Below are positions 2,532 through 51,641 of a DNA stretch of 64,000 nucleotides, piece after piece (position 1 is the stretch's first letter; each line of letters opens with the position of its first letter). Under the pieces are notes generated by a model. The model was not told the DNA's origin. It worked only from the letters and a program-made list of their open reading frames with translations, and did no database searches. The position numbers and the translations under genes are program-made. Source of the DNA: Patescibacteria group bacterium (GTDB taxonomy: Bacteria; Patescibacteriota; Patescibacteriia; JACRDY01); contig JBAZFH010000002.1 in NCBI GenBank assembly GCA_041653535.1, forward strand, positions 80,160 through 144,159, read 5' to 3'.

Positions 2532-3008
2532 TTAATTGCTAGTTCGTTTTTTTATATCGAACTGCTTTAGACAATAGCCCGCGGCGCCGACCACGATCAA
2601 GATGTCGGCGATATTGAACACCGGCCAGAAATTAAAATTGATATAATCAATCACTCCCCCGTAAGCCAGCCGGTCGATCAGGTTGGATAGCGCGCCAAGG
2701 ATGATAATAGTCAAAAAGATAGCTGCAGAAACTTTTTTATTTTGGTATTCTTTGATAGTTATGTAGACGAGAAATAAAATAACCACGCCGGTGATGGCCG
2801 AAATAATTTTTTGACTATCGCTGCCAAAAAGGTCGAGACTAAAAGCCATTCTTTCGTTTTGCCAAAACTGTAAGGTGAATATTTTAAAATCCCGAATCAC
2901 TTCGGGATTTTTTAGCAAATAAAATTTTATTAATCGGTCAAAGGCAAATAGAATGAAAATGACTAGGTTTAAAACGGTAATTCGCAGCGTTTTCATGGCT
3001 GATTTCAA
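2532..3008 (-). CDS. lspA: lipoprotein signal peptidase (signal peptidase II)
   Basis: 4-TM protein with the GALSNLIDRL and FNIADILIV motifs characteristic of LspA. Confidence 0.85.
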   Translation of the reverse strand: MKSAMKTLRITVLNLVIFILFAFDRLIKFYLLKNPEVIRDFKIFTLQFWQNERMAFSLDLFGSDSQKIISAITGVVILFLVYITIKEYQNKKVSAAIFLTIIILGALSNLIDRLAYGGVIDYINFNFWPVFNIADILIVVGAAGYCLKQFDIKKRTSN

Positions 3009-3367
3009 GACACTTTAGTTAGGCGATTTTTGCATGATATACATGCGGAAGAAGACGGACGGGCAAGCAGCCTTTTTTCATCAATCGGTTTGCCGCAGTA
3101 TTTGCAGATACCGTAAGTGCCATCATCGATATGCTTTAACGCTTTTTCAATATCGTGTAAGCTGGCCTGCAAGCTTTCTTCGATCGGAAGGTTATCGCTG
3201 TATTCCGCAACTTCAGCGGCATTATCATCTTCTTTGTCGCCGAATTCGGGAAATTTAGAATCAGTGGCGTCTTCATTACCGCCGGTAAAGACCGATAATT
3301 CCTTTTCTATTTTTTCTTTGCGTTCCAAAAGGTCGTTTTTTATTTTTTCTAAAGTTTTCTTGTTCAT
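3005..3367 (-). CDS. DksA/TraR-family C4 zinc-finger protein
   Basis: C-terminal CKYCGKPI...RLLARPSSSACISC four-Cys motif; acidic N-terminus; 4-nt overlap with lspA. Confidence 0.75.
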   Translation of the reverse strand: MNKKTLEKIKNDLLERKEKIEKELSVFTGGNEDATDSKFPEFGDKEDDNAAEVAEYSDNLPIEESLQASLHDIEKALKHIDDGTYGICKYCGKPIDEKRLLARPSSSACISCKNRLTKVS

Positions 3368-3799
3368 ATAAAGATTTGTTTTGTTTACCTCATTATAGCC
3401 TAAACAGATACTAAATAGCCAGTGTTCGGCTGGATAGTAGGCGTAATTATCTCAAAACAGCAGCTTTTGTCAATATTGGTTAAAATTTAGACAAAACAAA
3501 AAGGCGCAAGCTATAACCCAAATTTGTATTAATACATGGTTGCCGCGCCTTATGCGCTCGGGAAACACTTTATGGTCGTCCGTCACTTATTGGCAACATT
3601 GGTTACCCGCAAGTGGTGGACGACTCATAAATAGACTTTTTGCCCGAACAATGATGATTTTTCAAAACGTTTTTTGCCCCTGAAAACGTTACCGATTCAC
3701 CGGATCTTGGTAAATAGTGGATTTAGCACTTCTACCATTTTGCTTTTTGTTTTTTGTTGGGTAAGGGAGCTTCTTACCGGTTTAAATAAGATCGAGTAA

Positions 3800-4015
3800 A
3801 TTGGTGCATAGATAACGGAAGTTATCTACACATGTATTATACCATATATTTTAAACCACATCAATTTACGCAAGTGTTGTTTTTTGTTTAAGTTTAGATG
3901 AAAAAAAATGTGGATATTTACGTATTTTTTATTTTCTGTTCTTTTTTACTTTAAATTTTAATCAAGATGTTAACAGGATATCCACAAATAATGAAAAAAT
4001 GTGGATAAAGATTGA
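3800..4015. promoter_or_regulatory. cluster of DnaA-box-like 9-mers in a 640-bp AT-rich intergenic region (candidate oriC)
   Basis: tgtggataa (perfect, rc TTATCCACA) at 4003-4011; atatccaca at 3981-3989; tgtggatat at 3909-3916; ttatctaca at 3816-3824; AT-rich tract 4020-4045. Confidence 0.4.
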
Positions 4016-4044
4016 TTTAAAAATTTATTTAATTTTAAATAAAA

Positions 4045-5505
4045 CTATTTTAGACAGCCAGATATACCATAATCGGTCATTTTGAATGCCGAAATACTAA
4101 AAACTTCCCTATATCTAGCCAAAAAATTATTAGCCATGGTTTCTTGGAAGTTAAAAAACATTTGTGGATTAGCAATCTTCTGGCAAAAAGAGGTTAAATT
4201 AATGTTTTTTTCGCCGTTTATTAGCTGTTTAGTGGCGTCGAGCGATGTTGAGAGAATCAAGACGTCATCAATCTGCCCAAAAATAATTTTTAGTTTTGGC
4301 GCCTCTAGGTATTTTAGTTCGTATTTTCCGATTATTTCCGTTTTGGCGTCAAATCTTTTGGGATTAGCTACTAACTCGGTGTATATTGATTTATCCGGTA
4401 GCGACCTTTTTACTTTTTCGGGATACTGGTGGGCGAGGATGTTTTGTAGAATCCTATTAACGGTTTCCAGCGAGTTTTTGTCTTTGTTTTTTATGATAAA
4501 AGTATAAAACAGCTTGTTATCTTCTTTGGTAATAATGATTTGTGTTTGATTGTCCAAATATTTTTCTATTTCCGGAAAAGAAAACCGAAAAGTTTGTTCA
4601 TATGCTTGCCAGGTGCTGAATAGGTCTAAAAATTCTTTTGGTGAAAATTTTTGTAGCTGAACGGAAAAAAGACGGGAAAAATTCAAAAAATTTTCAGCGG
4701 CAATAGAAAAAGTTGTACTTGGCGGCAATTTTTTGGTGATTAGGTTGGCGCCTTTACCAAAATCGATACTTGATTTAATGTTAAAGTTAAAATTTTTATC
4801 TGCCGATATGTAAAAAGCTTTTATGTCGTTGTTTTTGAGGTAGTTTTGTAAAAGGGAAGAAAATATGGGAAAAGAAAGGTTTTTTTGTAATATTTCAGGG
4901 CGTAAAAAAATTTTTAACAAACCACGATCGTAAGCAGATAGCCAGCGATTGTTTTTAACGATCGACTGTTGTCGCTTGATTATGGTCGGGGCAGGAGCAG
5001 AGGTGTCCAGAGGGGCGATCAAATAGCGGCTGCCGGCGAATATTATTGTTTTTTGTCCGGAAATAATATTTTTTATTTCTTTTGGTTTTAGTATTTTGAT
5101 AACAAAATACCAATTATCGTCTTTGTTTAAATAAAGTCCGATTTCCCGGTCAATGTGGTTTTTGACAACAGAGATGTCAAAAGGCGGTAGTCCAGACATT
5201 CTTTCATCAATATCATCAAAAAATATACTGAAAAATTTTTCCGCCGGCGTACCGCTTTGTTCCAGGGGTAAATAGTTAAGATGTATATATATTTGCGCGT
5301 CAGCGGGGACAAATTGCGCTAGGTTGTCACCATTACGATTGCGACTGATAGCTAAAAATAAAATCCCGCTGAATATTATAATGATGGCGAGTAAAAATAA
5401 GATTGTTGCCAGGTGGCGAGGGCGGATGAGTTTGAGTTTTGCGAGTAGACGCTGGATCATGGTTTGATTATAACAAATAACAGGGTAATAGAGTAACGGG
5501 GGCAA
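4045..5505 (-). CDS. membrane-anchored hypothetical protein (N-terminal TM helix; start may be the internal Met at 5460)
   Basis: 486-aa ORF with a single N-terminal hydrophobic helix; no recognised domain. Confidence 0.5.
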   Translation of the reverse strand: MPPLLYYPVICYNQTMIQRLLAKLKLIRPRHLATILFLLAIIIIFSGILFLAISRNRNGDNLAQFVPADAQIYIHLNYLPLEQSGTPAEKFFSIFFDDIDERMSGLPPFDISVVKNHIDREIGLYLNKDDNWYFVIKILKPKEIKNIISGQKTIIFAGSRYLIAPLDTSAPAPTIIKRQQSIVKNNRWLSAYDRGLLKIFLRPEILQKNLSFPIFSSLLQNYLKNNDIKAFYISADKNFNFNIKSSIDFGKGANLITKKLPPSTTFSIAAENFLNFSRLFSVQLQKFSPKEFLDLFSTWQAYEQTFRFSFPEIEKYLDNQTQIIITKEDNKLFYTFIIKNKDKNSLETVNRILQNILAHQYPEKVKRSLPDKSIYTELVANPKRFDAKTEIIGKYELKYLEAPKLKIIFGQIDDVLILSTSLDATKQLINGEKNINLTSFCQKIANPQMFFNFQETMANNFLARYREVFSISAFKMTDYGISGCLK

Positions 5506-9312: not shown

Positions 9313-9819
9313 TTACCTTTTTCCGATCAAATATTTCCGTGGGTTGTCGTCCAGGTTGATAAAGTCATCAGCCGCTTCAATCAGTTTAGCCGAAGTGGTT
9401 TTGCCGAAAGCGACAACTTCCACCATGCAGCCTTTATTTTCCTGGAGATATTTTACCATCGGGATAAAATCTCCGTCGCCACAGACCAGAATGATCGAAT
9501 CCAGTTTGTCGGCAAGTTTGATAGCGTCAACAGCGATGCCGACATCCCAGTCGGCTTTTTTGACTCCGGAAAAAAATATTTGCAAATCTTTGCTTTTTAC
9601 TTCAAAACCTTGCTTGTCCAGCGCGCCAAAAAATCCAGACTCTTCTTTGCTTTTTGATTCAATGACATAAGCGATAGCACGAATTAATTTGCGTTCGCCA
9701 ATAGCCGTTTTGAGTATTTCTTTGAAATTAACATTGGCGTGATAAAGGTTTTTTGCCGAGTGATACATGTTTTGCGTATCAACCAGCACGCCGACTCTTT
9801 GATCTTTATGTTTTATCAT
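9313..9819 (-). CDS. NYN-domain (LabA/DUF88-like) RNase
   Basis: GVLVDTQNMYHS and CGDGDFIPMV motifs typical of the NYN domain; sits between rpsO and pnp. Confidence 0.75.
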   Translation of the reverse strand: MIKHKDQRVGVLVDTQNMYHSAKNLYHANVNFKEILKTAIGERKLIRAIAYVIESKSKEESGFFGALDKQGFEVKSKDLQIFFSGVKKADWDVGIAVDAIKLADKLDSIILVCGDGDFIPMVKYLQENKGCMVEVVAFGKTTSAKLIEAADDFINLDDNPRKYLIGKR

Positions 9820-12413: not shown

Positions 12414-13388
12414 ATGTCGAAAACTGGAAACAACCTAATCACCGATTTTCTCGAGTATCTGGAAATCGAGCGTGGACGATCGCAGGCGACTATCCGCAAC
12501 TATGATTTTTATCTGCGGCGTTTTTTTGATTGGGCGATTAAACGACAGAAGAGTTTTGATGTTAAAGATATTGATTCGCAGGCTATCAGACAGTATCGGT
12601 TGTTTCTTAACCGTGCCGTTGATGACAGAGGAAAGCAGCTTAAAAAAAGCACGCAAAATTATCACCTGATTGCTCTGCGGACGTTTCTCAAATTTCTTGC
12701 TAGAAATGATATCAAATCTTTGTCTCCGGAAAAAATCGAGCTGGCCAAACAGTCCGAACGCCAGATCGAATATTTGGAAGGGAGCGATCTTGGTAAATTT
12801 CTCGAAGCGCCGTTGCAAGTTGATGAGCAAAAAATCATCCAGCTGCGCGACAAATCAATGCTGGAAACGTTGTTTGCCACCGGGCTTCGTGTTTCCGAAT
12901 TAGTTAATCTTAGAAAAGATCAGGTGAATCTGAATAAAGACGAATTCACCGTGCGCGGTAAAGGAGATAAGCTGAGAATAGTTTTTCTTTCCAACCAGGC
13001 CAAATATTGGATTAAACAATATTTGGAAAATCGCAAAGATGCTTCGCCGTTTATGTTTGTCAGTCATGACAGGGCGAGGCAGTCCAGGTCTGGTGTTAGC
13101 GGCACCAAAAAAGATATTTTAGAAGAAGTTGAACATCTGACGCCACGGTCGGTGCAGCGGATAATCAAGAAATATGCTCAGATGGCGGGTATTACCAAAA
13201 AAATCACGCCGCACACTTTGCGTCATAGTTTTGCCACTGATTTATTGACTTCCGGCGCTGATATCCGTTCCGTGCAAAGTTTACTCGGACATTCATCGAT
13301 TACTACTACGCAAGTGTACACTCATATTGCCGATCAGCATCTCAAAGAGGTTTATAAAGCGTTTCATGGAAGGAAGATGAAGAAATGA
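12414..13388 (+). CDS. tyrosine site-specific recombinase (XerC/XerD family)
   Basis: core-binding N-domain; C-terminal RHSFATDLL...GHSSITTTQVYTHI with catalytic R-H-R-Y residues. Confidence 0.85.
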   Translation: MSKTGNNLITDFLEYLEIERGRSQATIRNYDFYLRRFFDWAIKRQKSFDVKDIDSQAIRQYRLFLNRAVDDRGKQLKKSTQNYHLIALRTFLKFLARNDIKSLSPEKIELAKQSERQIEYLEGSDLGKFLEAPLQVDEQKIIQLRDKSMLETLFATGLRVSELVNLRKDQVNLNKDEFTVRGKGDKLRIVFLSNQAKYWIKQYLENRKDASPFMFVSHDRARQSRSGVSGTKKDILEEVEHLTPRSVQRIIKKYAQMAGITKKITPHTLRHSFATDLLTSGADIRSVQSLLGHSSITTTQVYTHIADQHLKEVYKAFHGRKMKK

Positions 13389-13530
13389 GTATATAGTGGT
13401 TAGTATATAGTATATAGGGAGCAAATAGAGTATTTGTGTTTTATGGATATATAATTTTGGTCGTTGACTTTATGGAAAAATCTGCTAAAATATACTAACG
13501 TTATTGAAAAAAATTTGATTATTTGTTATT

Positions 13531-13612
13531 ATGCGCCCGTAGTTTCCTCCTTTGTCCGCTGCGGCGGGCTTCGGCGGACAAGCAATGGATAGATATGTGG
13601 GCGCAATTTCGT
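13531..13612 (+). other. degenerate duplicate of the tRNA-Arg 5' region interrupted by a GC-rich hairpin
   Basis: ttatgcgcccgtagtt + 38-nt GC insert (gtccgc..gcggac hairpin) + caatggatag + tgggcgca; no anticodon or T arm. Confidence 0.5.
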
Positions 13613-13625
13613 TTGTTTCTTTTAT

Positions 13626-13697
13626 GCGCCCGTAGTTCAATGGATAGAACGAGAGCCTTCTAAGCTTTAAATCTAGGTTCGATTCCTAGCGGGCGCG
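13626..13697 (+). tRNA. tRNA-Arg(TCT)
   Basis: cloverleaf folded by eye: acceptor gcgcccg/cgggcgc, anticodon loop cttCTaa, T-loop ttcgatt. Confidence 0.8.
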
Positions 13698-13733
13698 GAG
13701 ATAATTAACAATTATTAATTAGTATTTGAATAT

Positions 13734-13809
13734 GGTGGCTATAGTGTAATGGTTAGCACTCGACTCTGTGGAAGTCGCGGTTCGGGTTCAAATCCCGATA
13801 GCCACCCCA
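13734..13809 (+). tRNA. tRNA-His(GTG) with G-1 and encoded CCA; attL of the integrated island
   Basis: acceptor gtggcta/tagccac, anticodon loop ctGTGga, T-loop ttcaaat; extra 5' G. Confidence 0.8.
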
Positions 13810-15393
13810 CAAGGCACTCTTCTTTACGGAAGAGTGTTTTGTTTTGGAAATTAAGCCAATTTGGACAGGTTCTAAGGTTTTTATTTCTTCCAACCCAGTT
13901 TTTACAATTTCAAAGGGTTTTTGCAGGTTCAAAGATAATTGACGGTCTTTCAAAATAAAACCAGAGCCTAAAGATATTAAGATAGTCTTTTTAGTATCTA
14001 AGTCGCCGTTTTTAAACCAATGACGCGCATAGCAAGAGAATTCAAAAGTCTTCTCAACGTTCTCCCTCCAGTTGTCAGCTCGGCTTTCATAATTTTTTAA
14101 TTGCTCAGCCATTTTTTCCCTCTCTTGCAAAAGTTTATTTTTCCGTTCAGTATATTCGGCATCATTTATTAGTTCACTTATTCTCATTGAAAGCAGGCTG
14201 TCTAATTTCTTTTCTACATTATCGTAAGCTTTTTGTTGGGTGGCTCGGATTATTTCTCTTTCCTTAATCTCACCATCATTAAGATTGTTGAGCCATTTTA
14301 TAGCCCAGTTTTTAAAATCTTCTGGTATTTGTATTTTTTCTAAATAAGCGTCAACTTGTTTTTCGAGCTCTTTTATCTCGAGGGTTTTTTGGCTACACTT
14401 CGGGCAAACATTTTTCCCCTTGCCACAGCGATAGTAGGTGTAATGGTGGGCGTTGCCGTTTTTTTGTTTCTTGAATTTTTCCTCCGCAGTTATCATAGAG
14501 CCACACTCTCCGCAGCGTATAAGCCCCGTAAACGCAAAATTATGCGTTTTAGGGCGTGACTTACCCTTTCTACCCAGTATCTCTTGTACGCGCCAAAAAT
14601 CATCTTCTGTGATGATTGTTTCATGTGCCCCCTTGTACCACTCGCCCCTATATTGGAATTTTCCAAAATAGAATGGGTCAGCCAAAATTCTATAGATAGT
14701 ACTCTCAGCCATTGGTCTGCCACCCTGTCTTTTAGTTTTAGGAGTTAAATATCCCCATTCATTATTCATCTTGTCTAACACTTGAGCGACAGTATATTTT
14801 TGGGTCAGAATCAACTCGAAAGCCTTTTTAATTAATGGCAACCTTGCGGTATCGGGTAGGAGTTTCTTGTCCCCTTGTTCGGAGAGTTTGTCTGGTAAAT
14901 ACCCTGGCTTAGCTCCAGGCAACCACCCCATTTTTACTTTTTGCATCAGCCCCCTAATTGTATTTCGGCGTAAGTCGATAATAAATTGGTTCGCTACCCC
15001 AAACTCCATATTCATAAGAAGCACATTGTCTCCTGGATAGTAGTCTCTCTCGGGAGTTTTAATGTGTTTAATAATACCTTGCTGCAAAAGCCAATTAATT
15101 CTGCCACCATCTATTGGGTTCCTAGCTAGGCGGTCTAATTTCCAACAGATTATACCCTGCGCCTCTCCGTTTTCTATTCTCGTAATCATCTCATTGAAAA
15201 TTGGGCGCCCTGGGCTTTTAGCCGACATGGATTCTTTGAATATATGTATGCTGTTTAAACTAAACTTTTTCGCCGCCTCCTCACTAGTTGAAAGCTGCGC
15301 GGGAATAGATAAGGCTTGCCTGTCTTCCGCGGCTTCAGACTTTCTAGCATAAACGAAGTACTTTATAGTGTCTAAATTTTCCAAATTAGTCAT
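13753..15393 (-). CDS. large serine recombinase (resolvase/invertase N-domain + recombinase domain + zinc ribbon)
   Basis: N-terminal YARKSEAAEDRQALSIPAQ with catalytic Ser; C-terminal CGECGSM...YYRCGKGKNVCPKC zinc ribbon; 3' end overlaps tRNA-His. Confidence 0.85.
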   Translation of the reverse strand: MTNLENLDTIKYFVYARKSEAAEDRQALSIPAQLSTSEEAAKKFSLNSIHIFKESMSAKSPGRPIFNEMITRIENGEAQGIICWKLDRLARNPIDGGRINWLLQQGIIKHIKTPERDYYPGDNVLLMNMEFGVANQFIIDLRRNTIRGLMQKVKMGWLPGAKPGYLPDKLSEQGDKKLLPDTARLPLIKKAFELILTQKYTVAQVLDKMNNEWGYLTPKTKRQGGRPMAESTIYRILADPFYFGKFQYRGEWYKGAHETIITEDDFWRVQEILGRKGKSRPKTHNFAFTGLIRCGECGSMITAEEKFKKQKNGNAHHYTYYRCGKGKNVCPKCSQKTLEIKELEKQVDAYLEKIQIPEDFKNWAIKWLNNLNDGEIKEREIIRATQQKAYDNVEKKLDSLLSMRISELINDAEYTERKNKLLQEREKMAEQLKNYESRADNWRENVEKTFEFSCYARHWFKNGDLDTKKTILISLGSGFILKDRQLSLNLQKPFEIVKTGLEEIKTLEPVQIGLISKTKHSSVKKSALWGGYRDLNPNRDFHRVEC

Positions 15394-15401
15394 ATTTGCC
15401 T

Positions 15402-15614
15402 CTATTTTGTCGTTTCGCCTTCTTTGCCCTCTTTATCTTCCTTGGGGTTTGTTAGTCGGTTGTTTCCGCAAAATTGGCAACCTTTCCGATAGAAAGGCAG
15501 TATAAAAATCCAAAGTCCGCCGGTGACCAATACGGCGATAAATGTGCCGAAAGTAAAATGCCTTTTTGAGGTGACGTTCCTTTTACAAAGAACGCAATAG
15601 CCGAATCTTCGCAT
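15402..15614 (-). CDS. small membrane protein with CxxC pairs
   Basis: 70-aa ORF: CVLC...CQFCGNN plus a TM helix. Confidence 0.3.
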   Translation of the reverse strand: MRRFGYCVLCKRNVTSKRHFTFGTFIAVLVTGGLWIFILPFYRKGCQFCGNNRLTNPKEDKEGKEGETTK

Positions 15615-15869
15615 AAATGTCTATTTATTAATTAATTTTATAGCCATACTACTAAAACTGCTCGAAACTAGATAAAGCTACTAAGATTTATTCAAAATTA
15701 CCTCGTTTTGTAGTTTGACAACTAAAAAGCCCCCACCCATCGGTTTTTACGAACTTGCGTTCGTATGTGCGTCAACACTAGCCGAGGATGAGGGCATCCT
15801 AAGTGTTGACGCACAAAGTTGTATTGATATTCTACCGCTGTTTTAGGCATAAATCAATACTTTCGTGCT

Positions 15870-16217
15870 TTATTTGTCGAATAATGAACGCCATTCCTCT
15901 TGTGTTCGTGGGCGCATGCTTTTGAGTCCATATAATCTTTTTTCAGAATCCTCGATGTTTTTGGATATTGCCTTTTTGTGCTCTGTGAGAGCTTTAATTT
16001 GGTTAGGGTTCATGGAGTATAGCGAGCTACCCTGTTTATCAATCAGTTCTTGTTCATATTTTGTTATTCTGCGCAGGTTCCAAAAATCTAAGGCGATATC
16101 TTCCACCAATTCGATTTCTAGTTCGGTGACTGGTTTTAGTATCAGCCTCATCCTCTCTTTCAATTTAGTAAGTTCCTCAAGATTATCATTGTTAGTTAAG
16201 GAATTTTCATTTTCCAT
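15870..16217 (-). CDS. hypothetical helical protein (island cargo)
   Basis: ORF; start overlaps the stop of an upstream 48-aa ORF. Confidence 0.35.
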   Translation of the reverse strand: MENENSLTNNDNLEELTKLKERMRLILKPVTELEIELVEDIALDFWNLRRITKYEQELIDKQGSSLYSMNPNQIKALTEHKKAISKNIEDSEKRLYGLKSMRPRTQEEWRSLFDK

Positions 16218-16357
16218 ACTTTTTGTAGTTATTAATTATTTTATCTAAAAAACCAGCAATGGTTTTGGTGTCTCTGTTATCGTCCAGATAATCCCTTTGT
16301 TTTGGGTCAATACGCACCAGGGCTTTAAATCTCGTTTTTCTTTTAGTTGATGTCATA
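16211..16357 (-). CDS. 48-aa ORF, possibly a ribbon-helix-helix DNA-binding protein (antitoxin-like)
   Basis: MTSTKRKTRFKALVRIDPKQRDYLDD: basic beta-strand then helix; ATGGAAAATGA stop/start overlap with the downstream gene. Confidence 0.25.
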
Positions 16358-16671
16358 AGTATACTTAATAGCTCCCTCTGGCTCTCCTGCCCGAATAGAC
16401 ACTTGTTCGCCTGGTTTTTAGATGGGACTGCCCGAGAATCTCGTCTCGGTCAAAGCAGTTTTTATCATTCGGTGTAGGTGTCGCCGTCGGTCGCTATCTT
16501 AATTCAGTTAATTGATAATTGAATTAAGATAAAGACCATTATTTTTTGATTGGCTTGTATATAGTTTTAAATAGATTCAAAAGGTTTGTAGCTTGTTTGG
16601 CGGCTTCAGCGCTACTAATTTCTATCCCGCAGCTATCCTTATATATTTGTTGAAATTCTTTTATAGCCGTT

Positions 16672-16923
16672 TCAGTCAGCATAAACTCTGCTTTTTAACT
16701 CTTTAAGAGTATTGAAATAAATTAGCGGGTCGACGGTTAGTCCATGAGCCCAAAATAATTGTATTAGTTGGTCTAAATACTCGTCTCGTCTTATAAGGAA
16801 TTTTATTTTTTGTGGGTTTTCTTTGTCTGTTGCTTCTACGCAATATCCGAGGCAACCGAGCGTCGCACATAAGGAAAGGTCAGAGGTCTTAAAATAATCA
16901 TTTTCATTTAATTTTTGGGTCAT
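16672..16923 (-). CDS. hypothetical protein
   Basis: 83-aa ORF. Confidence 0.3.
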   Translation of the reverse strand: MTQKLNENDYFKTSDLSLCATLGCLGYCVEATDKENPQKIKFLIRRDEYLDQLIQLFWAHGLTVDPLIYFNTLKELKSRVYAD

Positions 16924-17065
16924 ATAATTTTCATTAATTTTGTTTTTATTATGACAAAACCACCTATCCGGTGTTGAAAAGGTGGTTTTTATTAAACAAA
17001 AAATAGCCTTAATTTGGCTATTATTTATTTAGCTTTCTACGTTTTAGGTAAAAAGATTACCACTT

Positions 17066-17815
17066 TTACTTTTTTGTTTTTTTATTTTCAACCCAAACCT
17101 TCCTGCCTTTTACGTGGAAAGAGAATCTTTTATTAAGACCGTTTCTTTTTAATGTCCTTTGTATTTCCTTGATGGTGGTTTTTATTTTTTCAATTTTTTG
17201 CCATTCATTATAGTCGTCGGTCAGTAATCCGTTTTTTTGGTCTTTTGGCTCTTGAATTATATTAATTATCTCATTCGTAGAAGTGGCTAAGCCAAAATAG
17301 TCCCAGAGACGTTTTATTAGCCTACCTTGCCTAGTGTTATATTTGGCGACTTTTATATTCCTACTGTCAATATTTAAATAACAAAATTTAATATTCCCTT
17401 CTTTTTTGATAGAAACTTTACTGGTAGTTTTATCATTAGATGGGTATTTTAAATTTTTTATTTGTAAAGAATTTTGATAGGCGGTAGCTTTTGTTTTGTA
17501 TGATTTCTTAAAATTTTTAAATTCATTTTTAAATTTTTGTTCGTTAGTAGAAAATTCGAAATAACCATTAATATCTTCTTCAAGTGGGTATTTAATATTT
17601 TTTATTACCCCCTTCTTCTGCAATATTTGAAAAGCCCAAATTCTTCCTTTGATAAGTTCGGTTAGTTCTACACCCTTTATCCCTTTATTGTATTTATTTG
17701 CTACCCACCCGCCTAGCAATGGTATTTTAATTTTATTTTTCTCGGATACAAAGAAGCTCCTTATTTCTTGCAAGGCATTCCAGACTCTCTCTGTTTCCTT
17801 TCTATCTAAATACAT
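17066..17815 (-). CDS. lysine-rich hypothetical protein (island cargo)
   Basis: 249-aa ORF, no recognised domain. Confidence 0.4.
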   Translation of the reverse strand: MYLDRKETERVWNALQEIRSFFVSEKNKIKIPLLGGWVANKYNKGIKGVELTELIKGRIWAFQILQKKGVIKNIKYPLEEDINGYFEFSTNEQKFKNEFKNFKKSYKTKATAYQNSLQIKNLKYPSNDKTTSKVSIKKEGNIKFCYLNIDSRNIKVAKYNTRQGRLIKRLWDYFGLATSTNEIINIIQEPKDQKNGLLTDDYNEWQKIEKIKTTIKEIQRTLKRNGLNKRFSFHVKGRKVWVENKKTKK

Positions 17816-17974
17816 TAATCTTAATTTTAATCTTAATTTATATTCTTATTTTAGCACTTTTAGTTAGTTCTTTAAAGATGAAAATCAGCCAGAGTTTACC
17901 CGTTATGTATTTATTCAGAAAATGAGCTATAATTAAACTCGCAGTCTTGCTGGAGTATTAAAACATTAAAATGT

Positions 17975-19165
17975 ATGGAAAATCCTATTTTTATACCAAA
18001 ATTAATCCAAAACGAAGCTGGCTTTGTAGATAAAATAAAATTGCCAGCTATTTTAATGGACGCTAATATTGTTGCCTTTTCCCCTAAAATATCCGGCAAG
18101 ATAAGAGCGTCTGCAGATAGTTTTATTATCAATCCGGTCACTAATTTTTTTGTTGAAAATTCATTCATAGGCAAAAAAGCATTTAAGAAGTTGCCTACGG
18201 CTCCAGCTAAGCCCTATAGAGTTGAAGAGCTATTAACAAACGAAAAGTTAAGACGAGATGAATTGGTTTGGAAAAATATTGAGTATCAGATTAACAATAA
18301 AGCTAATATAATTATTATCCCTTACATTTATTCTGACAGCATTAATGATTCCAAATTCGGAATAAATTTAAGTATGATTTCTGACGCTTTAAAATTATTA
18401 AAAGTAAATAAAATAAATATCCCAGCGTATGCCATGATTAACATGGGCTCAAGTGTTTTGAATGATTTTACTGGACTAAATAACTTGATAGAAAGATACC
18501 GTGATGATTTTAATGACAAGATAAATGGTTTTTTTATGATGTTTGACGGCTTTGATTGTAGAAAAGCCGTGGATGATTCATTAATGGGTTTAGCCTATTT
18601 AACATTTTATTTGTCCGAGAATAAAAATACCTTCATTTTAAACCTGGGTGATTTTGGGGATGTATTATGTGCTATAGGTGCAAGGGGATATAGTAGCAGT
18701 TTGGGCGGTGGTGAAATATTTAATGTAGAAAAGCTATCCAAGGAAACTAAGAGTCGAGGCAGAAATCATAAAATTTTCTCTTACGTGCCCGAGGTGTTTG
18801 ATTATTTAAATAATGAATCATTAAGAAAAATTGGTTATAAATGTCCCTGCTCTATTTGCGATAATGGAATACCTAATGGCTGGAATAACGCAAAAGCCCA
18901 TTTTCTAAACAGAAAATTGGAGCGGATGGATAATTTAGCCAATTTAAATCGTGACCAGAGAATTGATTTTATTAAATTAAAAATTGAGCAAGCCGTTGAA
19001 CTAATATCTGTATATAATGCAAATTTTGCATTATCTATAAAGACGGATTTTTTGCTAAGATGGAAGAATGTTTTGGAAAAATCACGCCACTGGTCTTATA
19101 GCAAGCGAGAGACTGAAGCGGTGGATTTAGATAAAATAATTGAAGAAGCTAGAAAAAACAAATGA
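17975..19165 (+). CDS. tRNA-guanine transglycosylase (TGT)-like / DpdA-like protein
   Basis: NGFFMMFDGFDCRKAV resembles the TGT GIDMFDCV catalytic-Asp motif; C-terminal YKCPCSICDNG...AKAHF matches the TGT CxCxxC...H zinc site; N-terminal NPIFIPKL resembles TPxFMPV. Confidence 0.5.
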   Translation: MENPIFIPKLIQNEAGFVDKIKLPAILMDANIVAFSPKISGKIRASADSFIINPVTNFFVENSFIGKKAFKKLPTAPAKPYRVEELLTNEKLRRDELVWKNIEYQINNKANIIIIPYIYSDSINDSKFGINLSMISDALKLLKVNKINIPAYAMINMGSSVLNDFTGLNNLIERYRDDFNDKINGFFMMFDGFDCRKAVDDSLMGLAYLTFYLSENKNTFILNLGDFGDVLCAIGARGYSSSLGGGEIFNVEKLSKETKSRGRNHKIFSYVPEVFDYLNNESLRKIGYKCPCSICDNGIPNGWNNAKAHFLNRKLERMDNLANLNRDQRIDFIKLKIEQAVELISVYNANFALSIKTDFLLRWKNVLEKSRHWSYSKRETEAVDLDKIIEEARKNK

Positions 19166-19608
19166 GAATCGTGCCAGATACAAATTTATTAATTCAAGGA
19201 TTGCTTTTTAGAGGCACAGCTAGAAAAATAATCAACTTGGCTTATGAGAAAAAAGTTGATTTTTATGGTAGTGCGAATTCTTTTAATGAAATAAAAAGAG
19301 TAGTCTACTATTCTCGATTTAAAAAATACCTTGAGAATGAAATATTTTCCCCAGAAAAAATAATGATTTCTTTTAAGTCCCTCATCACCGTTGTTTCTAT
19401 AGACTCAAAATATAAAAATTCAAAATTTGTCGCCGATGATGCAGATGACGATGAGTTTATAAGAATAGCTAAGACAGTACAATCAAAATTTATTATTTCA
19501 AGCGATAAGCATTTAAAGAATATAAAAAAAGTCGACGATATAAGAATCGTCGAGCCAGAAATTTTTTTGAAGATATATCCAACTATATCAGGAAAAACAT
19601 TTTTTTAA
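19162..19608 (+). CDS. PIN-domain nuclease (VapC-like)
   Basis: MRIVPDTNLLI start, acidic DDADDDEF and SSDKHL motifs; start overlaps upstream stop (AAATGA). Confidence 0.65.
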   Translation: MRIVPDTNLLIQGLLFRGTARKIINLAYEKKVDFYGSANSFNEIKRVVYYSRFKKYLENEIFSPEKIMISFKSLITVVSIDSKYKNSKFVADDADDDEFIRIAKTVQSKFIISSDKHLKNIKKVDDIRIVEPEIFLKIYPTISGKTFF

Positions 19609-20259
19609 TTGTTGTTTTCCTAAGATAAACTCAGCGGCTAAATTAAACTTATGCCTATTTAAGGGTCGAGTGGCTTTTACTCGACTTATTTTTTTTGTAT
19701 GCTTATCGGGGTCAAATAAAATTAATCCTATATTATGTTTTTTAAGTAGCTCGCGGTCTACTAGATGACCTCTAGCAGCTGGCATGGCTAGGTATGCTTT
19801 ATTAGCAAAAGATTTATATCTATTGGCTTGCACAAATCCCTTTTTCCAATCTTTAAGTTTGGCTTCAATGGCAATGATTTCTTTAGCGATGGGCATCCAA
19901 CCATTTATCTTGAAATAGTATTTGTTATCAACTTTTTTTATAAAGCCATTATTTTCTAGGGTTTTTAAATATTTATATTTTAGAGTTGCCTTTGGAATAT
20001 TTAGATTTTTAGTTAGGCTGTTTAGGTCAACTTTTTTATTAGCGCCTAGCTCTGGCAAGTAATCAAAAATTTTAAAAAATTCCTCATTTTTTATTTTTTT
20101 GTATTGTTTGTTTTTGTTTCTGATGGCGCACTTATCTGGATTGACTCTAAATAGGACTAAATCTGCAACCCCATAACCAACGCCAACCTCCCTTTTGGTT
20201 AAGAAACCTTCCTTAATGAATTTTTCTTCCAAAAGTTTGACAAATTTTTTTTCTGTCAT
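19588..20259 (-). CDS. PD-(D/E)xK-fold nuclease with inserted winged-helix domain
   Basis: GYGVADLVLF ... IAIEAKLKDWKKGFVQANRY (D...ExK) with a wHTH segment between; converges on the PIN gene with ~20-nt overlap. Confidence 0.5.
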   Translation of the reverse strand: MTEKKFVKLLEEKFIKEGFLTKREVGVGYGVADLVLFRVNPDKCAIRNKNKQYKKIKNEEFFKIFDYLPELGANKKVDLNSLTKNLNIPKATLKYKYLKTLENNGFIKKVDNKYYFKINGWMPIAKEIIAIEAKLKDWKKGFVQANRYKSFANKAYLAMPAARGHLVDRELLKKHNIGLILFDPDKHTKKISRVKATRPLNRHKFNLAAEFILGKQQLKKCFS

Positions 20260-20357
20260 AATAAAATTATAGCATAGTTTAAAGTAATACTGAAATCCAC
20301 AGTCATCCGCCCCGTTAGGGTTTTTATTACCCCAGATTTTTTATTGGAATTTTGTGT

Positions 20358-20660
20358 TTAAGGTGCATCGACAGTATCTACGGTTTCTAAGTCGTCTAGA
20401 GCCCATTCCATATCATCGCAGCTAGACCATGAATAGTCTTGAGCATCTTCTATGTTAGAATTACACTCCTCTATGTTGTTGTTGGCTTGTTCTAGGGCAT
20501 CTTGATAACTATAAAGTTGGTTTTCACAATAGTAAAGTTGGCTGTCGTAATAGAGAAGTTGGTTTTTCATTTCCTCTGTAGCTTGATTATTTTTCCATAT
20601 CCAAATACCACAAACTAGTATAACTAAAAAGATTAAAATTTTTAGCTGTTTTACCCCCAT
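20358..20660 (-). CDS. membrane-anchored acidic small protein
   Basis: N-terminal TM helix, acidic Cys-containing C-terminus. Confidence 0.35.
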   Translation of the reverse strand: MGVKQLKILIFLVILVCGIWIWKNNQATEEMKNQLLYYDSQLYYCENQLYSYQDALEQANNNIEECNSNIEDAQDYSWSSCDDMEWALDDLETVDTVDAP

Positions 20661-20848
20661 ATATTAATCATTTTTTTTAATCAATTCTTTCCAAACGTAA
20701 ATAGTTAATATTACGAACGGTATTGGTGCTAACGCAATTGCATCACTGTTCGGCTTTTCAATTATAACCGACCAAGCGAAGTAAACCGATAGAATTAGAA
20801 TGATAATTCTGAGCCAACGAAAAAAATTTTTCATATAAATAAATTAAT

Positions 20849-21247
20849 TTATTTTTTCTTAGCTAGCCAATATCCACCAGCTCCAGCTCCGCCTAGTCCC
20901 AAAACCCAAGCCCAGGTATTATCTGATTTATCAGAAGAATCTTGTTCGGAGTTGATTTTAGCAATTGGTCGCTGATTAACTTCGAGTTTAGGGATTTCAT
21001 ATTCTGGTGCGGGTTCTGTTGTTCCTGTCCCATTAGCTCCGTAAGTGCTTTTTATGGGCTCTTCTGGCTGAGGCAAAGCTTTAGCTTGGTGGCAATGATA
21101 TTCGCCCGTGCCGAGACCCCAAGAGGAGCAATTTGTTCGACAGGTATGACAACCAGAAGCATCGGTTCTGCCAGGATGTGCTTGAGCAATCAGAACAAAG
21201 CTAAAAGAGGCAATAAATAGTGCTATAGATAGGGATACTTTGTACAT
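20849..21247 (-). CDS. secreted YHYH-like small protein with C-terminal hydrophobic anchor
   Basis: signal peptide; HPGRTDASGCH...GEYHCH resembles YHYH-domain proteins; C-terminal GLGGAGAGGYWLAKKK. Confidence 0.4.
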   Translation of the reverse strand: MYKVSLSIALFIASFSFVLIAQAHPGRTDASGCHTCRTNCSSWGLGTGEYHCHQAKALPQPEEPIKSTYGANGTGTTEPAPEYEIPKLEVNQRPIAKINSEQDSSDKSDNTWAWVLGLGGAGAGGYWLAKKK

Positions 21248-46018: not shown

Positions 46019-46498
46019 TTAGATAGAGCCGATCATTCTTAAGAAAAAGGTAAGTAAGGCATAACTGGAAAAAACAACCAAAATACCGACTATTGACCAC
46101 ATCATAATATCACGACCTCTTTTAACTTTTTCTTCGTTTCCGCCGGAAAATATCCAGAAAAAACCGCCGATCACGAACATTAGAAAGGCAAGTCCGCCAA
46201 TAGGGATGATGGCGGCGCGAGCAACGCGAGCGGCTATTTCAGCAATATTCACCGAATCAATATCAGCCGCGGTTAAATCTTTTTGGACTTTTATGTCATC
46301 TTCCTCGTTTGGATTTAGCGGGTTGGGAATTTTAATTCTATCGCCAAAACCAGTTTGTTGTTCAGAATTACTTTCTTCAGAATTACTTTCTTCACTATTA
46401 TCCTGAGCAAAAACTGGTTGGGCAAAGTAATTAAAAAAATAGATAGCAATAATCAAAACGCAAATAATTGAGATAAATTTTGGTATGATTCTTTGCAT
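46019..46498 (-). CDS. small secreted/membrane protein, TrbC/VirB2-pilin-like topology
   Basis: signal peptide, SNSEE repeats, two C-terminal hydrophobic helices. Confidence 0.35.
   Translation of the reverse strand: MQRIIPKFISIICVLIIAIYFFNYFAQPVFAQDNSEESNSEESNSEQQTGFGDRIKIPNPLNPNEEDDIKVQKDLTAADIDSVNIAEIAARVARAAIIPIGGLAFLMFVIGGFFWIFSGGNEEKVKRGRDIMMWSIVGILVVFSSYALLTFFLRMIGSI

Positions 46499-50157: not shown

Positions 50158-51641
<1,484 letters not shown>

What the first reader, a model, noticed from the sequence alone, without database searches (positions are those of the whole stretch)
3800..4045. DnaA-box cluster in an AT-rich 640-bp gap: candidate replication origin
There are four 9-mers within one mismatch of TTATCCACA, including a perfect box at 4003-4011, within about 200 bp, followed by an A/T-only tract (aaatttatttaattttaaataaaact) that could serve as an unwinding element. 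No dnaA gene is adjacent. The origin would then be displaced from dnaA, or these boxes regulate the neighbouring genes.
Basis: partly seen in the sequence, partly recalled or inferred. Interest (0 to 1): 0.5.

Follow-up and report, generated by a model that had tools for sequence, protein, structure and literature searches.

The report
DnaA boxes controlling an unknown RNA gene
The DnaA-box cluster is real, but it is most likely not a replication origin: it sits at fixed distances upstream of the promoter of a conserved, structured non-coding RNA that matches no Rfam family and is found across many Patescibacteria, so the replication initiator probably controls that RNA.

Summary
There are four DnaA boxes (at most 1 mismatch) in 187 bp and a fifth 155 bp away, far more than chance gives.

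The origin reading does not hold:
- GC skew has the same sign on both sides of the gap, in the window and in 27 of 32 related 20-kb loci.
- The window has no dnaA or dnaN.
- Where relatives have dnaA-dnaN nearby, that spacer carries a textbook unwinding module (tandem boxes, GC spacer, TTA/CTA trios, AT-rich tract). It coincides with the local GC-skew minimum in 11 of 14 loci.
- The same scan finds no such module in the window or at any homologous box cluster.

The 677-bp gap holds a minus-strand gene for a structured RNA of about 335 nt (about 3829 to 3495). It has a sigma-70 promoter with an extended -10, an intrinsic terminator and strong covariation, and it matches no Rfam family.

The RNA lies upstream of a dksA/traR-like gene in at least 37 species. 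In 36 of them TGTGGATAA boxes sit at clade-fixed positions (about -146, -138/-104 or -178/-155) upstream of a near-consensus promoter.

Best reading: this is a DnaA-controlled ncRNA promoter. The sign of regulation and the RNA's function are unknown.

The parts
4020..4044 (.). It directly follows the stop codon of the DUF3352-like ORF.
   Evidence: Sequence. Not conserved in the homologous gaps of relatives, where the box lies about 40-50 nt from the upstream ORF in GC-containing sequence.
4000..4008 (-). Perfect DnaA box TTATCCACA, at about -179 relative to the predicted RNA start. Specific to this genome.
   Evidence: No counterpart in the four closest relatives in alignment A1.
3978..3986 (+). 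The conserved distal DnaA box. It reads TGTGGATAT on the RNA sense strand, at about -157 relative to the predicted RNA start.
   Evidence: TGTGGATA is invariant in alignment A1. A box of this orientation is present in 36 of 37 RNA-bearing genomes, at clade-fixed distances.
3909..3917 (-). DnaA box ATATCCACA at about -88. It corresponds to TTATCCCCA at -88 to -90 in L002, L010 and L011.
3865..3908 (-). Conserved A/T-rich stretch just upstream of the -35. It resembles an UP element (inferred).
   Evidence: Columns 279-310 of alignment A1 are conserved. The equivalent A/T-only stretch in L033 is at 9455-9490.
3836..3864 (-). Sigma-70-type promoter of the RNA gene: -35 TTGATG (3864-3859), 17-nt spacer, extended -10 TGGTATAAT (3844-3836).
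   Evidence: Promoter scan. The TTG of the -35 and TATAAT are invariant in A1. Relatives mostly have TTGACA-17/18-TATAAT with a TG extension.
3822..3830 (+). DnaA-box-like TTATCTACA spanning -1 to +8 of the RNA. In the transcript it forms one arm of the 5' hairpin.
   Evidence: Conserved as TGTAGATAA in L002 and L010, and degenerate in L004 and L011.
3495..3829 (-). Structured non-coding RNA gene of about 335 nt. The ends are inferred from the promoter and the terminator.
   Evidence: MFE -108.2 kcal/mol, z = -8.0. Conserved in relatives. No ORF of 50 aa or more in the gap. No Rfam family matches.
3688..3808 (-). RNA core: a 15-bp long-range helix enclosing two hairpins and a conserved A-rich single-stranded linker (AAAACAAAAACAAAA type).
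   Evidence: Covariance models R1 and R2. Covariation is shown and, independently of the model.
3493..3549 (-). Intrinsic terminator of the RNA: hairpin GGCGCGGC...GCTTGCGCC followed by the run TTTTTGTTTT.
   Evidence: Sequence, fold, and the conserved GCGCCTTTTT in A1.
3446..3473 (-). Separate promoter of the dksA-like/lspA operon: TTGACA, 16-nt spacer, TGaGATAAT.
   Evidence: 11 of 12 matches. Conserved in A1 columns 931-962.
2532..3367 (-). DksA/TraR-type zinc-finger gene (3005-3367) and signal peptidase II gene lspA (2532-3008), downstream of the RNA on the same strand.
   Evidence: Pfam. Synteny in relatives.
4045..5460 (-). Upstream neighbour: a fast-evolving DUF3352-like protein gene that ends at the gap. 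It contains a non-conserved fifth box at 4163-4171.
   Evidence: It is 30% identical to the syntenic DUF3352 protein of L002.

Best explanation
The box cluster is the upstream control region of an unannotated gene for a structured non-coding RNA, transcribed on the minus strand from about 3829 to about 3495. It is not the chromosomal origin. DnaA probably binds the conserved distal box (3978-3986) and, in this genome, three further boxes that bracket the promoter at about -179, -88 and +1. In that way it would tie synthesis of the RNA to the amount or nucleotide state of the initiator. The promoter is close to consensus and the extra boxes in this clade lie over and beside it, so repression by DnaA spreading from the high-affinity box is the more likely direction. 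What is shown: the boxes, the promoter, the terminator, the RNA structure, and their conservation and fixed spacing. What is inferred: DnaA binding, the sign of regulation, and the function of the RNA.
For: (1) The closest relatives keep the same order: DUF3352-like gene, a 770-930 bp gap, dksA-like gene, lspA.
(2) Aligning the gaps shows an invariant TGTGGATA box, a conserved promoter with an extended -10, a conserved transcribed stretch of 340-430 nt, a terminator, and a second promoter for dksA.
(3) The RNA core carries covariation. In one search, 93% of cells in the 15-bp helix are paired and 13 of 15 pairs change on both sides, while slid controls give 40-51% paired. MAFFT plus RNAalifold on 20 sequences, independent of the model, recovers the helix with 11 of 14 compensatory pairs and a near-invariant U-G pair that fixes the strand. 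The window RNA folds with z = -8.0.
(4) Model R2 finds the core upstream of dksA, on the same strand, in 37 genomes.
(5) In 36 of those 37 genomes, boxes lie within 350 nt upstream of the core: 6.4 per kb against 0.22 per kb background, 67 in one orientation and 16 in the other.
(6) Of 74 species loci, 56 have such a box at -900 to -200 from dksA, and 44 of those are perfect. Only 9% of control windows have one.
(7) Box positions relative to the predicted start are fixed within clades: -145 to -148 in 11 genomes, -138/-104 in 8, -178/-155 in 7. The window's distal box is at -157, one helical turn further than in its closest relatives.
(8) In L078 the RNA is not next to dksA, yet it keeps its box.
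(9) DnaA is an established activator and repressor of transcription through such boxes (PMC8203912).
(10) The origin tests are negative.
Against: There are no expression or binding data, so both the RNA and its control by DnaA rest on sequence alone. Boxes 100-180 bp upstream of a start site are far for simple occlusion. In most clades no box overlaps the promoter, so activation or no transcriptional role remains possible. This genome's own dnaA-dnaN locus and full-contig GC skew could not be examined, because the 323-kb source contig was not retrievable. One relative, L062, has its local skew minimum 0.75 kb from the RNA-linked boxes.
Confidence: 0.65

Rival explanations
1. The cluster is the chromosomal replication origin, displaced from dnaA. 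DnaA would assemble on the boxes and open the adjacent A/T tract.
For: There is a significant cluster of 4-5 boxes including a perfect one. An A/T-only tract of 25 bp lies on the side of the conserved box where an unwinding element would be expected. The region is only 22% GC. The module lies 2-9 kb from dnaA-dnaN in about a quarter of related species, so it was probably origin-proximal ancestrally.
Against: GC skew is positive on both sides. The cumulative minimum lies at the left end of the available sequence, not at 3.9 kb. The three syntenic close relatives with 10-kb flanks, and 27 of 32 related loci in all, show no sign change. Relatives with dnaA-dnaN in reach carry a textbook box/GC-spacer/trio/AT-rich module in that spacer, and the local skew minimum falls there in 11 of 14 loci. 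The scan for that module found it in 10 dnaA-dnaN spacers, at none of the RNA-linked clusters, and nowhere in the window. The A/T tract and the perfect box are not conserved. Flanking genes do not diverge from the site.
Confidence: 0.05
2. The boxes are a DnaA-titrating or DnaA-recycling locus, comparable to datA or DARS of E. coli or the oriC-proximal DnaA-box clusters of B. subtilis. They would tune initiation, and their position next to the RNA promoter would be incidental.
For: High-affinity boxes, often as a tandem pair 20-34 bp apart, are conserved outside the origin and are frequently within 2-9 kb of it.
Against: Box-to-promoter distance is fixed within clades and changes by a helical turn in the window. 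The boxes stay with the RNA when the RNA is unlinked from dksA and from dnaA. Only 1-4 boxes are present. A pure sink needs no fixed phasing with a promoter. The two roles are not mutually exclusive.
Confidence: 0.15
3. The transcribed structure is a cis-acting leader (attenuator or riboswitch-like element) of the dksA-like/lspA operon, and the boxes regulate that operon rather than a free-standing RNA.
For: The RNA is almost always directly upstream of dksA on the same strand, 230-430 nt from it. Several relatives lack a T5 run between the core and dksA.
Against: In the window clade, in L033 and in L020, a terminator hairpin is followed by a separate, well-conserved promoter for dksA. In L078 the RNA is elsewhere than dksA.
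Confidence: 0.08
4. The conserved TGTGGATAA motifs are bound by a protein other than DnaA, or are promoter-upstream DNA elements unrelated to replication control.
For: No binding data exist. Flanking bases are also partly conserved (TGTGGATAAcyTGTgaaca).
Against: The motif equals the canonical DnaA box. The same box is used in these lineages' own dnaA-dnaN origin modules. Second copies are degenerate in the way typical of weak DnaA boxes, such as TGGGGATAA.
Confidence: 0.07

Closest known systems
Bacterial chromosomal origin with basal unwinding system (DnaA boxes, DnaA-trios, AT-rich element; B. subtilis incC, E. coli oriC; PMC6669920, PMC8287927)
   Same: A cluster of canonical DnaA boxes in an AT-rich intergenic region. 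In some relatives it lies a few kb from dnaA-dnaN.
   Different: No box/spacer/trio/AT-rich arrangement. No GC-skew switch. The A/T tract is not conserved. Relatives possess a separate canonical module in the dnaA-dnaN spacer.
DnaA-regulated promoters (E. coli dnaA and nrdAB; B. subtilis dnaA-dnaN, sda, ywlC and others; review PMC8203912)
   Same: A few DnaA boxes lie upstream of, and in this clade overlapping, a sigma-70 promoter. In known cases the outcome can be activation or repression, depending on DnaA level and bound nucleotide.
   Different: The regulated gene is a long structured non-coding RNA rather than a protein gene. The main box lies unusually far upstream (about -105 to -180) at clade-fixed positions. 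The lineage is uncultivated Patescibacteria. Regulation itself is untested.
datA and DARS1/2 of E. coli, and the oriC-proximal DnaA-box clusters of B. subtilis (from my own knowledge; not checked in a paper here)
   Same: Conserved non-origin DnaA-box clusters in intergenic DNA, often near the origin.
   Different: This cluster has fewer boxes and is phased to a promoter. No IHF-type partner site was looked for. The effect on initiation is unknown.
CcnA of Caulobacter crescentus (PMC8959179)
   Same: A non-coding RNA gene whose promoter carries binding sites for a master replication or cell-cycle regulator, located at or near the origin.
   Different: CcnA lies inside the origin, is driven by CtrA, and is a short base-pairing sRNA. 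The RNA here is 310-430 nt, highly structured, outside the origin, and associated with DnaA boxes. There is no sequence relationship.
Known stable or large bacterial RNAs (RNase P RNA, tmRNA, SRP RNA, 6S RNA; OLE, ROOL, GOLLD, raiA)
   Same: A discrete, strongly structured RNA with its own near-consensus promoter and terminator, and a size in the range of RNase P RNA or tmRNA.
   Different: No Rfam 15 model matches at gathering or permissive thresholds, in the window or in relatives. ARAGORN finds no tmRNA. The RNase P, T-loop and SRP signature motifs are absent.

Membership tests
Chromosomal replication origin (oriC) | Cluster of DnaA boxes | tested here: met
   Four boxes in 187 bp and five in 350 bp. 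Fewer than 1 in 4000 local simulations reach this.
Chromosomal replication origin (oriC) | Basal unwinding module: box (at most 2 mismatches), spacer of at most 16 bp, at least 3-4 DnaA-trios, then an AT-rich element, in the correct orientation (rules adapted from PMC8287927) | tested here: not met
   My scan gave no hit in the 64-kb window and none at any RNA-linked cluster. It did hit 10 dnaA-dnaN spacers of relatives, with 2 other hits in 1.35 Mb.
Chromosomal replication origin (oriC) | Coincides with the GC-skew switch (minimum of cumulative skew) | tested here: not met
   Skew is +0.08 to the left and +0.08 to the right of the gap. The minimum lies at the left end of the available sequence. 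There is no sign change in L002, L004 and L006 (L006 is the same contig as L010), and none in 27 of 32 loci. The marker is validated in this lineage: the minimum falls at dnaA-dnaN in 11 of 14 loci. Only 4.5 kb is available to the left of the site in this genome.
Chromosomal replication origin (oriC) | Adjacent to dnaA or dnaN (usual, not obligatory) | tested here: not met
   No dnaA or dnaN in the window, nor within 10 kb in the closest relatives.
Chromosomal replication origin (oriC) | Supports initiation in vivo (marker frequency or coverage peak, autonomous replication) | not testable with these tools
   No read data and no full contig were available.
DnaA-regulated promoter (DnaA regulon) | DnaA boxes at a defined position relative to a recognisable promoter | tested here: met
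   Boxes lie at -157, -88 and -1 (plus -179) from the start predicted for the TTGATG-17-TGGTATAAT promoter. Positions are fixed by clade in 36 genomes.
DnaA-regulated promoter (DnaA regulon) | Boxes conserved with the target gene across species | tested here: met
   36 of 37 RNA loci carry a box, a 29-fold enrichment with an orientation bias of 67 to 16. 56 of 74 loci have one against 9% of controls.
DnaA-regulated promoter (DnaA regulon) | DnaA binds the site and changes transcription | not testable with these tools
   This needs footprinting or EMSA, and in vitro or in vivo transcription assays.
datA / DARS / DnaA-box-cluster type regulatory loci | Characteristic box arrangement with an accessory-protein site, and an effect on DnaA-ATP level or initiation | not tested
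   Only the presence of conserved non-origin boxes was established. No IHF or Fis site model was applied.
Iteron-type plasmid or phage origin | Direct repeats (iterons) next to DnaA boxes, and a rep gene | tested here: not met
   There are only short two-copy repeats, one being the box itself with its A-run. No rep-like gene flanks the site.
Curated RNA families (Rfam 15: RNase P, tmRNA, SRP, 6S, riboswitches, large ncRNAs) | Score at or above the family gathering threshold, or a credible sub-threshold match | tested here: not met
   No hit in the gap at gathering threshold or at E up to 10. None in four 20-kb relative loci. In four further loci only spurious microRNA-type hairpin hits appeared. 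ARAGORN was negative.

The most novel reading that the evidence does not exclude
Many Patescibacteria lineages (Falkow-, Magasanik-, Buchanan- and Uhrbacteria and relatives) carry an undescribed structured RNA of 310-430 nt. Its near-consensus promoter is wired to the replication initiator DnaA through helically phased boxes at fixed positions. The RNA would be a replication-status-controlled riboregulator, possibly acting together with the adjacent DksA-like RNA-polymerase factor.
Probability: 0.45. Interest if true: 0.7.

Novelty: new variant of a known kind. Interest (0 to 1): 0.5.

Why it matters
For origin prediction, this is a worked example of a false positive. A statistically strong DnaA-box cluster in AT-rich DNA is not an origin here. 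The lineage's real origin signature (tandem boxes, GC spacer, TTA/CTA trios and an ATATATAAATATATAA-type tract upstream of dnaN) is recognisable and could be used to annotate Patescibacteria genomes.

For biology, the locus reveals a widely conserved, large, structured RNA that matches no Rfam family, in organisms with tiny genomes and few known regulators. Its promoter appears coupled to DnaA. If that is confirmed, it would be a DnaA-controlled structured RNA; one paper search turned up no such case. It would also give a handle on how these uncultivated bacteria link replication to gene expression.

Tried and rejected
- Rfam at gathering and permissive thresholds, on the window gap and on eight related loci: nothing credible.
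- ARAGORN: no tmRNA.
- Signature motifs of RNase P, the tRNA-like T-loop and SRP in 31 homologous gaps: none.
- Iterons or other repeats in the gap: only the box plus its A-run is repeated.
- Small ORFs in the gap: all under 50 aa.
- Homologues of the 471-aa upstream ORF: the word-indexed search returned only the protein itself. It is nevertheless a 30%-identical syntenic DUF3352 orthologue.
- Retrieving the 323-kb source contig, to see the whole-contig skew and this genome's own dnaA: only a 7.3-kb Logan contig was returned, adding 725 bp.
- Searching for this genome's DnaA with the last protein search: I did not run it. The query would have had to come from a different clade, and the 120 listed hits were unlikely to include this genome.
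- Model R2 on the Magasanikbacteria-type locus L020: the core scores only 4.4 bits, although the box/promoter/RNA/terminator/promoter layout is the same. Homology of that RNA is therefore not shown.
- First shuffle script: it timed out and was rerun in vectorised form.

Full report
**Observation.** The window has 12 nonamers within one mismatch of TTATCCACA, no more than chance gives (14.2 expected). Five of them lie between 3822 and 4171, and four within 187 bp: 3822-3830 (+), 3909-3917 (-), 3978-3986 (+) and the perfect 4000-4008 (-). In 200 Markov simulations of the window, no 200-bp span held four boxes. Simulations with the 22% GC composition of 3800-4045 expect 0.10 boxes and never gave four in 4000 trials. 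The gap is 677 bp (3368-4044). The A/T tract is at 4020-4044, directly after the stop of the ORF at 4045-5460(-).

**Context.** The sequence comes from a Patescibacteria metagenome-assembled genome: the upstream ORF is NCBI WC310_02250 on a 323-kb contig. Both flanking genes are on the minus strand. A DUF3352-like membrane protein gene ends at the gap. A DksA/TraR zinc-finger gene plus lspA start on the other side. The 64 kb contains no dnaA, dnaN or other usual origin neighbours.

**What the gap contains.** DksA homologues at 70-75% identity (Candidatus Falkowbacteria and unnamed relatives) sit in the same arrangement, with a 770-930-bp gap. Aligning the gaps in the dksA direction shows, in order:
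- an invariant TGTGGATA box (window 3978-3986);
- a second box (window 3909-3917);
- a conserved A/T-rich stretch;
- a promoter with invariant TTG, a 17-nt spacer and TGnTATAAT (window -35 at 3864-3859, -10 at 3844-3836);
- a third box, TGTAGATAA, across the start site (3822-3830);
- a conserved stretch of 340-430 nt ending in a GC hairpin plus T-run (3549-3493);
- a second conserved promoter for dksA (3473-3446).

The A/T tract and the perfect box are not conserved.

**The RNA.**
- The window transcript (about 3829 to about 3495) folds to -108 kcal/mol, z = -8.0.
- Its core (3808-3688) is a 15-bp long-range helix enclosing two hairpins and an A-rich linker.
- A covariance model built from five sequences, then rebuilt from 25, finds the core upstream of dksA on the same strand in 37 genomes. 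These are labelled Falkow-, Buchanan-, Uhr-, Magasanik- and Parcubacteria, plus mislabelled MAGs.
- On the model alignment, 89.7% of cells pair against 40-51% when partners are slid. 26 of 30 pairs show changes on both sides.
- MAFFT plus RNAalifold on 20 sequences, which is independent of the model, recovers the long helix with 11 of 14 compensatory pairs. It also shows a nearly invariant U-G pair that only works on this strand.
- No Rfam 15 family matches in the window or in relatives, and there is no tmRNA.
- No ORF of 50 aa or more lies in the gap.

**Boxes and promoter across genomes.**
- 36 of the 37 RNA loci have a box within 350 nt upstream of the core. The density is 6.4 per kb against 0.22 per kb in the rest of the loci, with 67 boxes reading TGTGGATAA on the RNA strand and 16 reversed. 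Many occur as tandem pairs 20-34 bp apart.
- Among 74 species loci with enough upstream sequence, 56 have such a box at -900 to -200 from dksA, 44 of them perfect. Only 9% of control windows do.
- The RNA promoters are mostly TTGACA-17/18-TATAAT with a TG extension.
- Box positions relative to the predicted start fall into clade-specific classes: -145 to -148 (11 genomes), -138 with -104 (8), and -178 with -155 (7).
- The window has -157, -88 and -1. Its nearest relatives have -146 to -148, -88 to -90 and -1 to -2, a difference of one helical turn.
- In L078 the RNA is away from dksA but keeps its box.
- A Magasanikbacteria locus (L020) and a complete chromosome (L033, OZ246416.1) show the same layout of boxes, promoter, RNA of about 310 nt, terminator, promoter and dksA.

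**Is it the origin?**
- In the window, skew is +0.083 to the left and +0.08 to the right of the gap. With 725 bp added from a Logan contig, the cumulative minimum lies at the far left end, not at 3.9 kb.
- The three close syntenic relatives with 10-kb flanks show no sign change, nor do 27 of 32 related 20-kb loci.
- In 21 of 80 related species, dnaA and/or dnaN lies within the fetched locus (Pfam confirmation).
- In those species the dnaA-dnaN spacer has its own box cluster. It also has a textbook unwinding module immediately upstream of dnaN, for example cttatcccctCTATCCACAgcccTTACTACTATTA...AAATATATAATATATTATA in L016.
- The local cumulative-skew minimum falls within about 0.7 kb of that spacer in 11 of 14 loci. 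The exceptions are L014, L032 and L062. In L062 the minimum is 0.75 kb from the RNA-linked boxes.
- A scan written from the published rules (PMC8287927) hit 10 dnaA-dnaN spacers and two other places in 1.35 Mb. It hit none of the RNA-linked clusters and nothing in the window.

In this lineage the origin is therefore the dnaA-dnaN spacer, and the cluster studied here is a separate, additional DnaA-box site. The remaining gap is that this genome's own dnaA locus and whole-contig skew could not be retrieved.

**Mechanism.** The fixed and helically phased distance between boxes and a near-consensus promoter, the linkage of the boxes to the RNA rather than to dksA or dnaA, and the known dual role of DnaA as a transcription factor (PMC8203912) favour one reading. 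That reading is DnaA control of the RNA promoter. Because the promoter hardly needs an activator, and this clade adds boxes at -88 and +1, I lean towards repression at high DnaA-ATP. This is inference.

The rivals are a titration or recycling site (0.15), a cis-leader of dksA (0.08), a different binding protein (0.07), and a displaced origin (0.05). The RNA's function is unknown. Its most conserved single-stranded element is AAAACAAAAACAAAA. Its constant neighbour is an RNA-polymerase-binding-type factor. A role in transcription control is only a guess.

**Comparison and novelty.** The locus works like a DnaA-regulon promoter and fails the tested defining features of an origin. The nearest conceptual parallel for an RNA tied to a replication regulator is CcnA of Caulobacter, which is unrelated in sequence, size and regulator (PMC8959179). 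Literature searches found no description of this RNA or of a DnaA-controlled structured RNA. I rate it a new variant of a known kind, with interest 0.5.

Noticed in passing
window 12414-21000: A Xer/phage-type tyrosine integrase (12414-13388) and tRNA-Arg/tRNA-His (13625-13809) are followed by a large serine recombinase (13753-15393, minus strand) whose end overlaps tRNA-His. A stretch at 30-32% GC follows (about 15-21 kb, against about 42% elsewhere). This is probably an element integrated at the tRNA.
   Followed up: partly
window 50159-51641 (-): A complete 16S rRNA gene with no 23S or 5S hit anywhere in the 64 kb, so the rRNA genes are unlinked.
   Followed up: no
L016 2947-3010; L080 6384-6310 (-); L020 17339-17270 (-); L024 17686-17610 (-): Related species carry a very regular origin signature just upstream of dnaN: tandem boxes, a short GC spacer, TTA/CTA trios, and an ATATATAAATATATAA-type tract. 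It could serve as a lineage-specific origin detector.
   Followed up: yes
window 3978-3986 compared with L002, L010 and L011: The distal box is at -157 in the window but at -146 to -148 in its closest relatives, while the -88 and -1 boxes keep their place. This is a roughly 10-bp (one helical turn) insertion that preserves phasing.
   Followed up: partly
L078 420-542 (-): Here the RNA core is about 3.6 kb from dksA and on the opposite strand. It still has a perfect TGTGGATAA 298 nt upstream of the core. The record is labelled Nanoarchaeia, which is probably a binning or labelling error.
   Followed up: partly
L062 8588: The local cumulative GC-skew minimum lies 0.75 kb from the RNA-linked boxes (9315/9347) and 4 kb from the dnaA-dnaN spacer. 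It is the only locus where skew points towards the RNA-linked cluster. The locus is short (11.9 kb).
   Followed up: no
window 4045-5460 (-): The word-indexed search of 5.8 billion proteins returned only this protein itself. Yet it is a 30%-identical, full-length syntenic orthologue of a DUF3352 protein in L002. It is a very fast-evolving membrane-anchored protein, not an orphan.
   Followed up: yes
window 3715-3735 (-) and the equivalent position in 20 relatives: The A-rich linker AAAACAAAAACAAAA is the most conserved single-stranded part of the RNA core. It resembles an (A-R-N)n protein-binding tract.
   Followed up: no
L006 15206-16459 and L008 7985-9265; L002 10981-13301: Reverse-transcriptase genes and Avd-like (23S_rRNA_IVP/bAvd) genes lie a few kb downstream of dksA-lspA in relatives, which suggests diversity-generating retroelements. 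They are absent from the window, whose synteny breaks right after lspA.
   Followed up: no
window 46019-46498 (-): A small protein with a type IV secretion system pilin domain.
   Followed up: no
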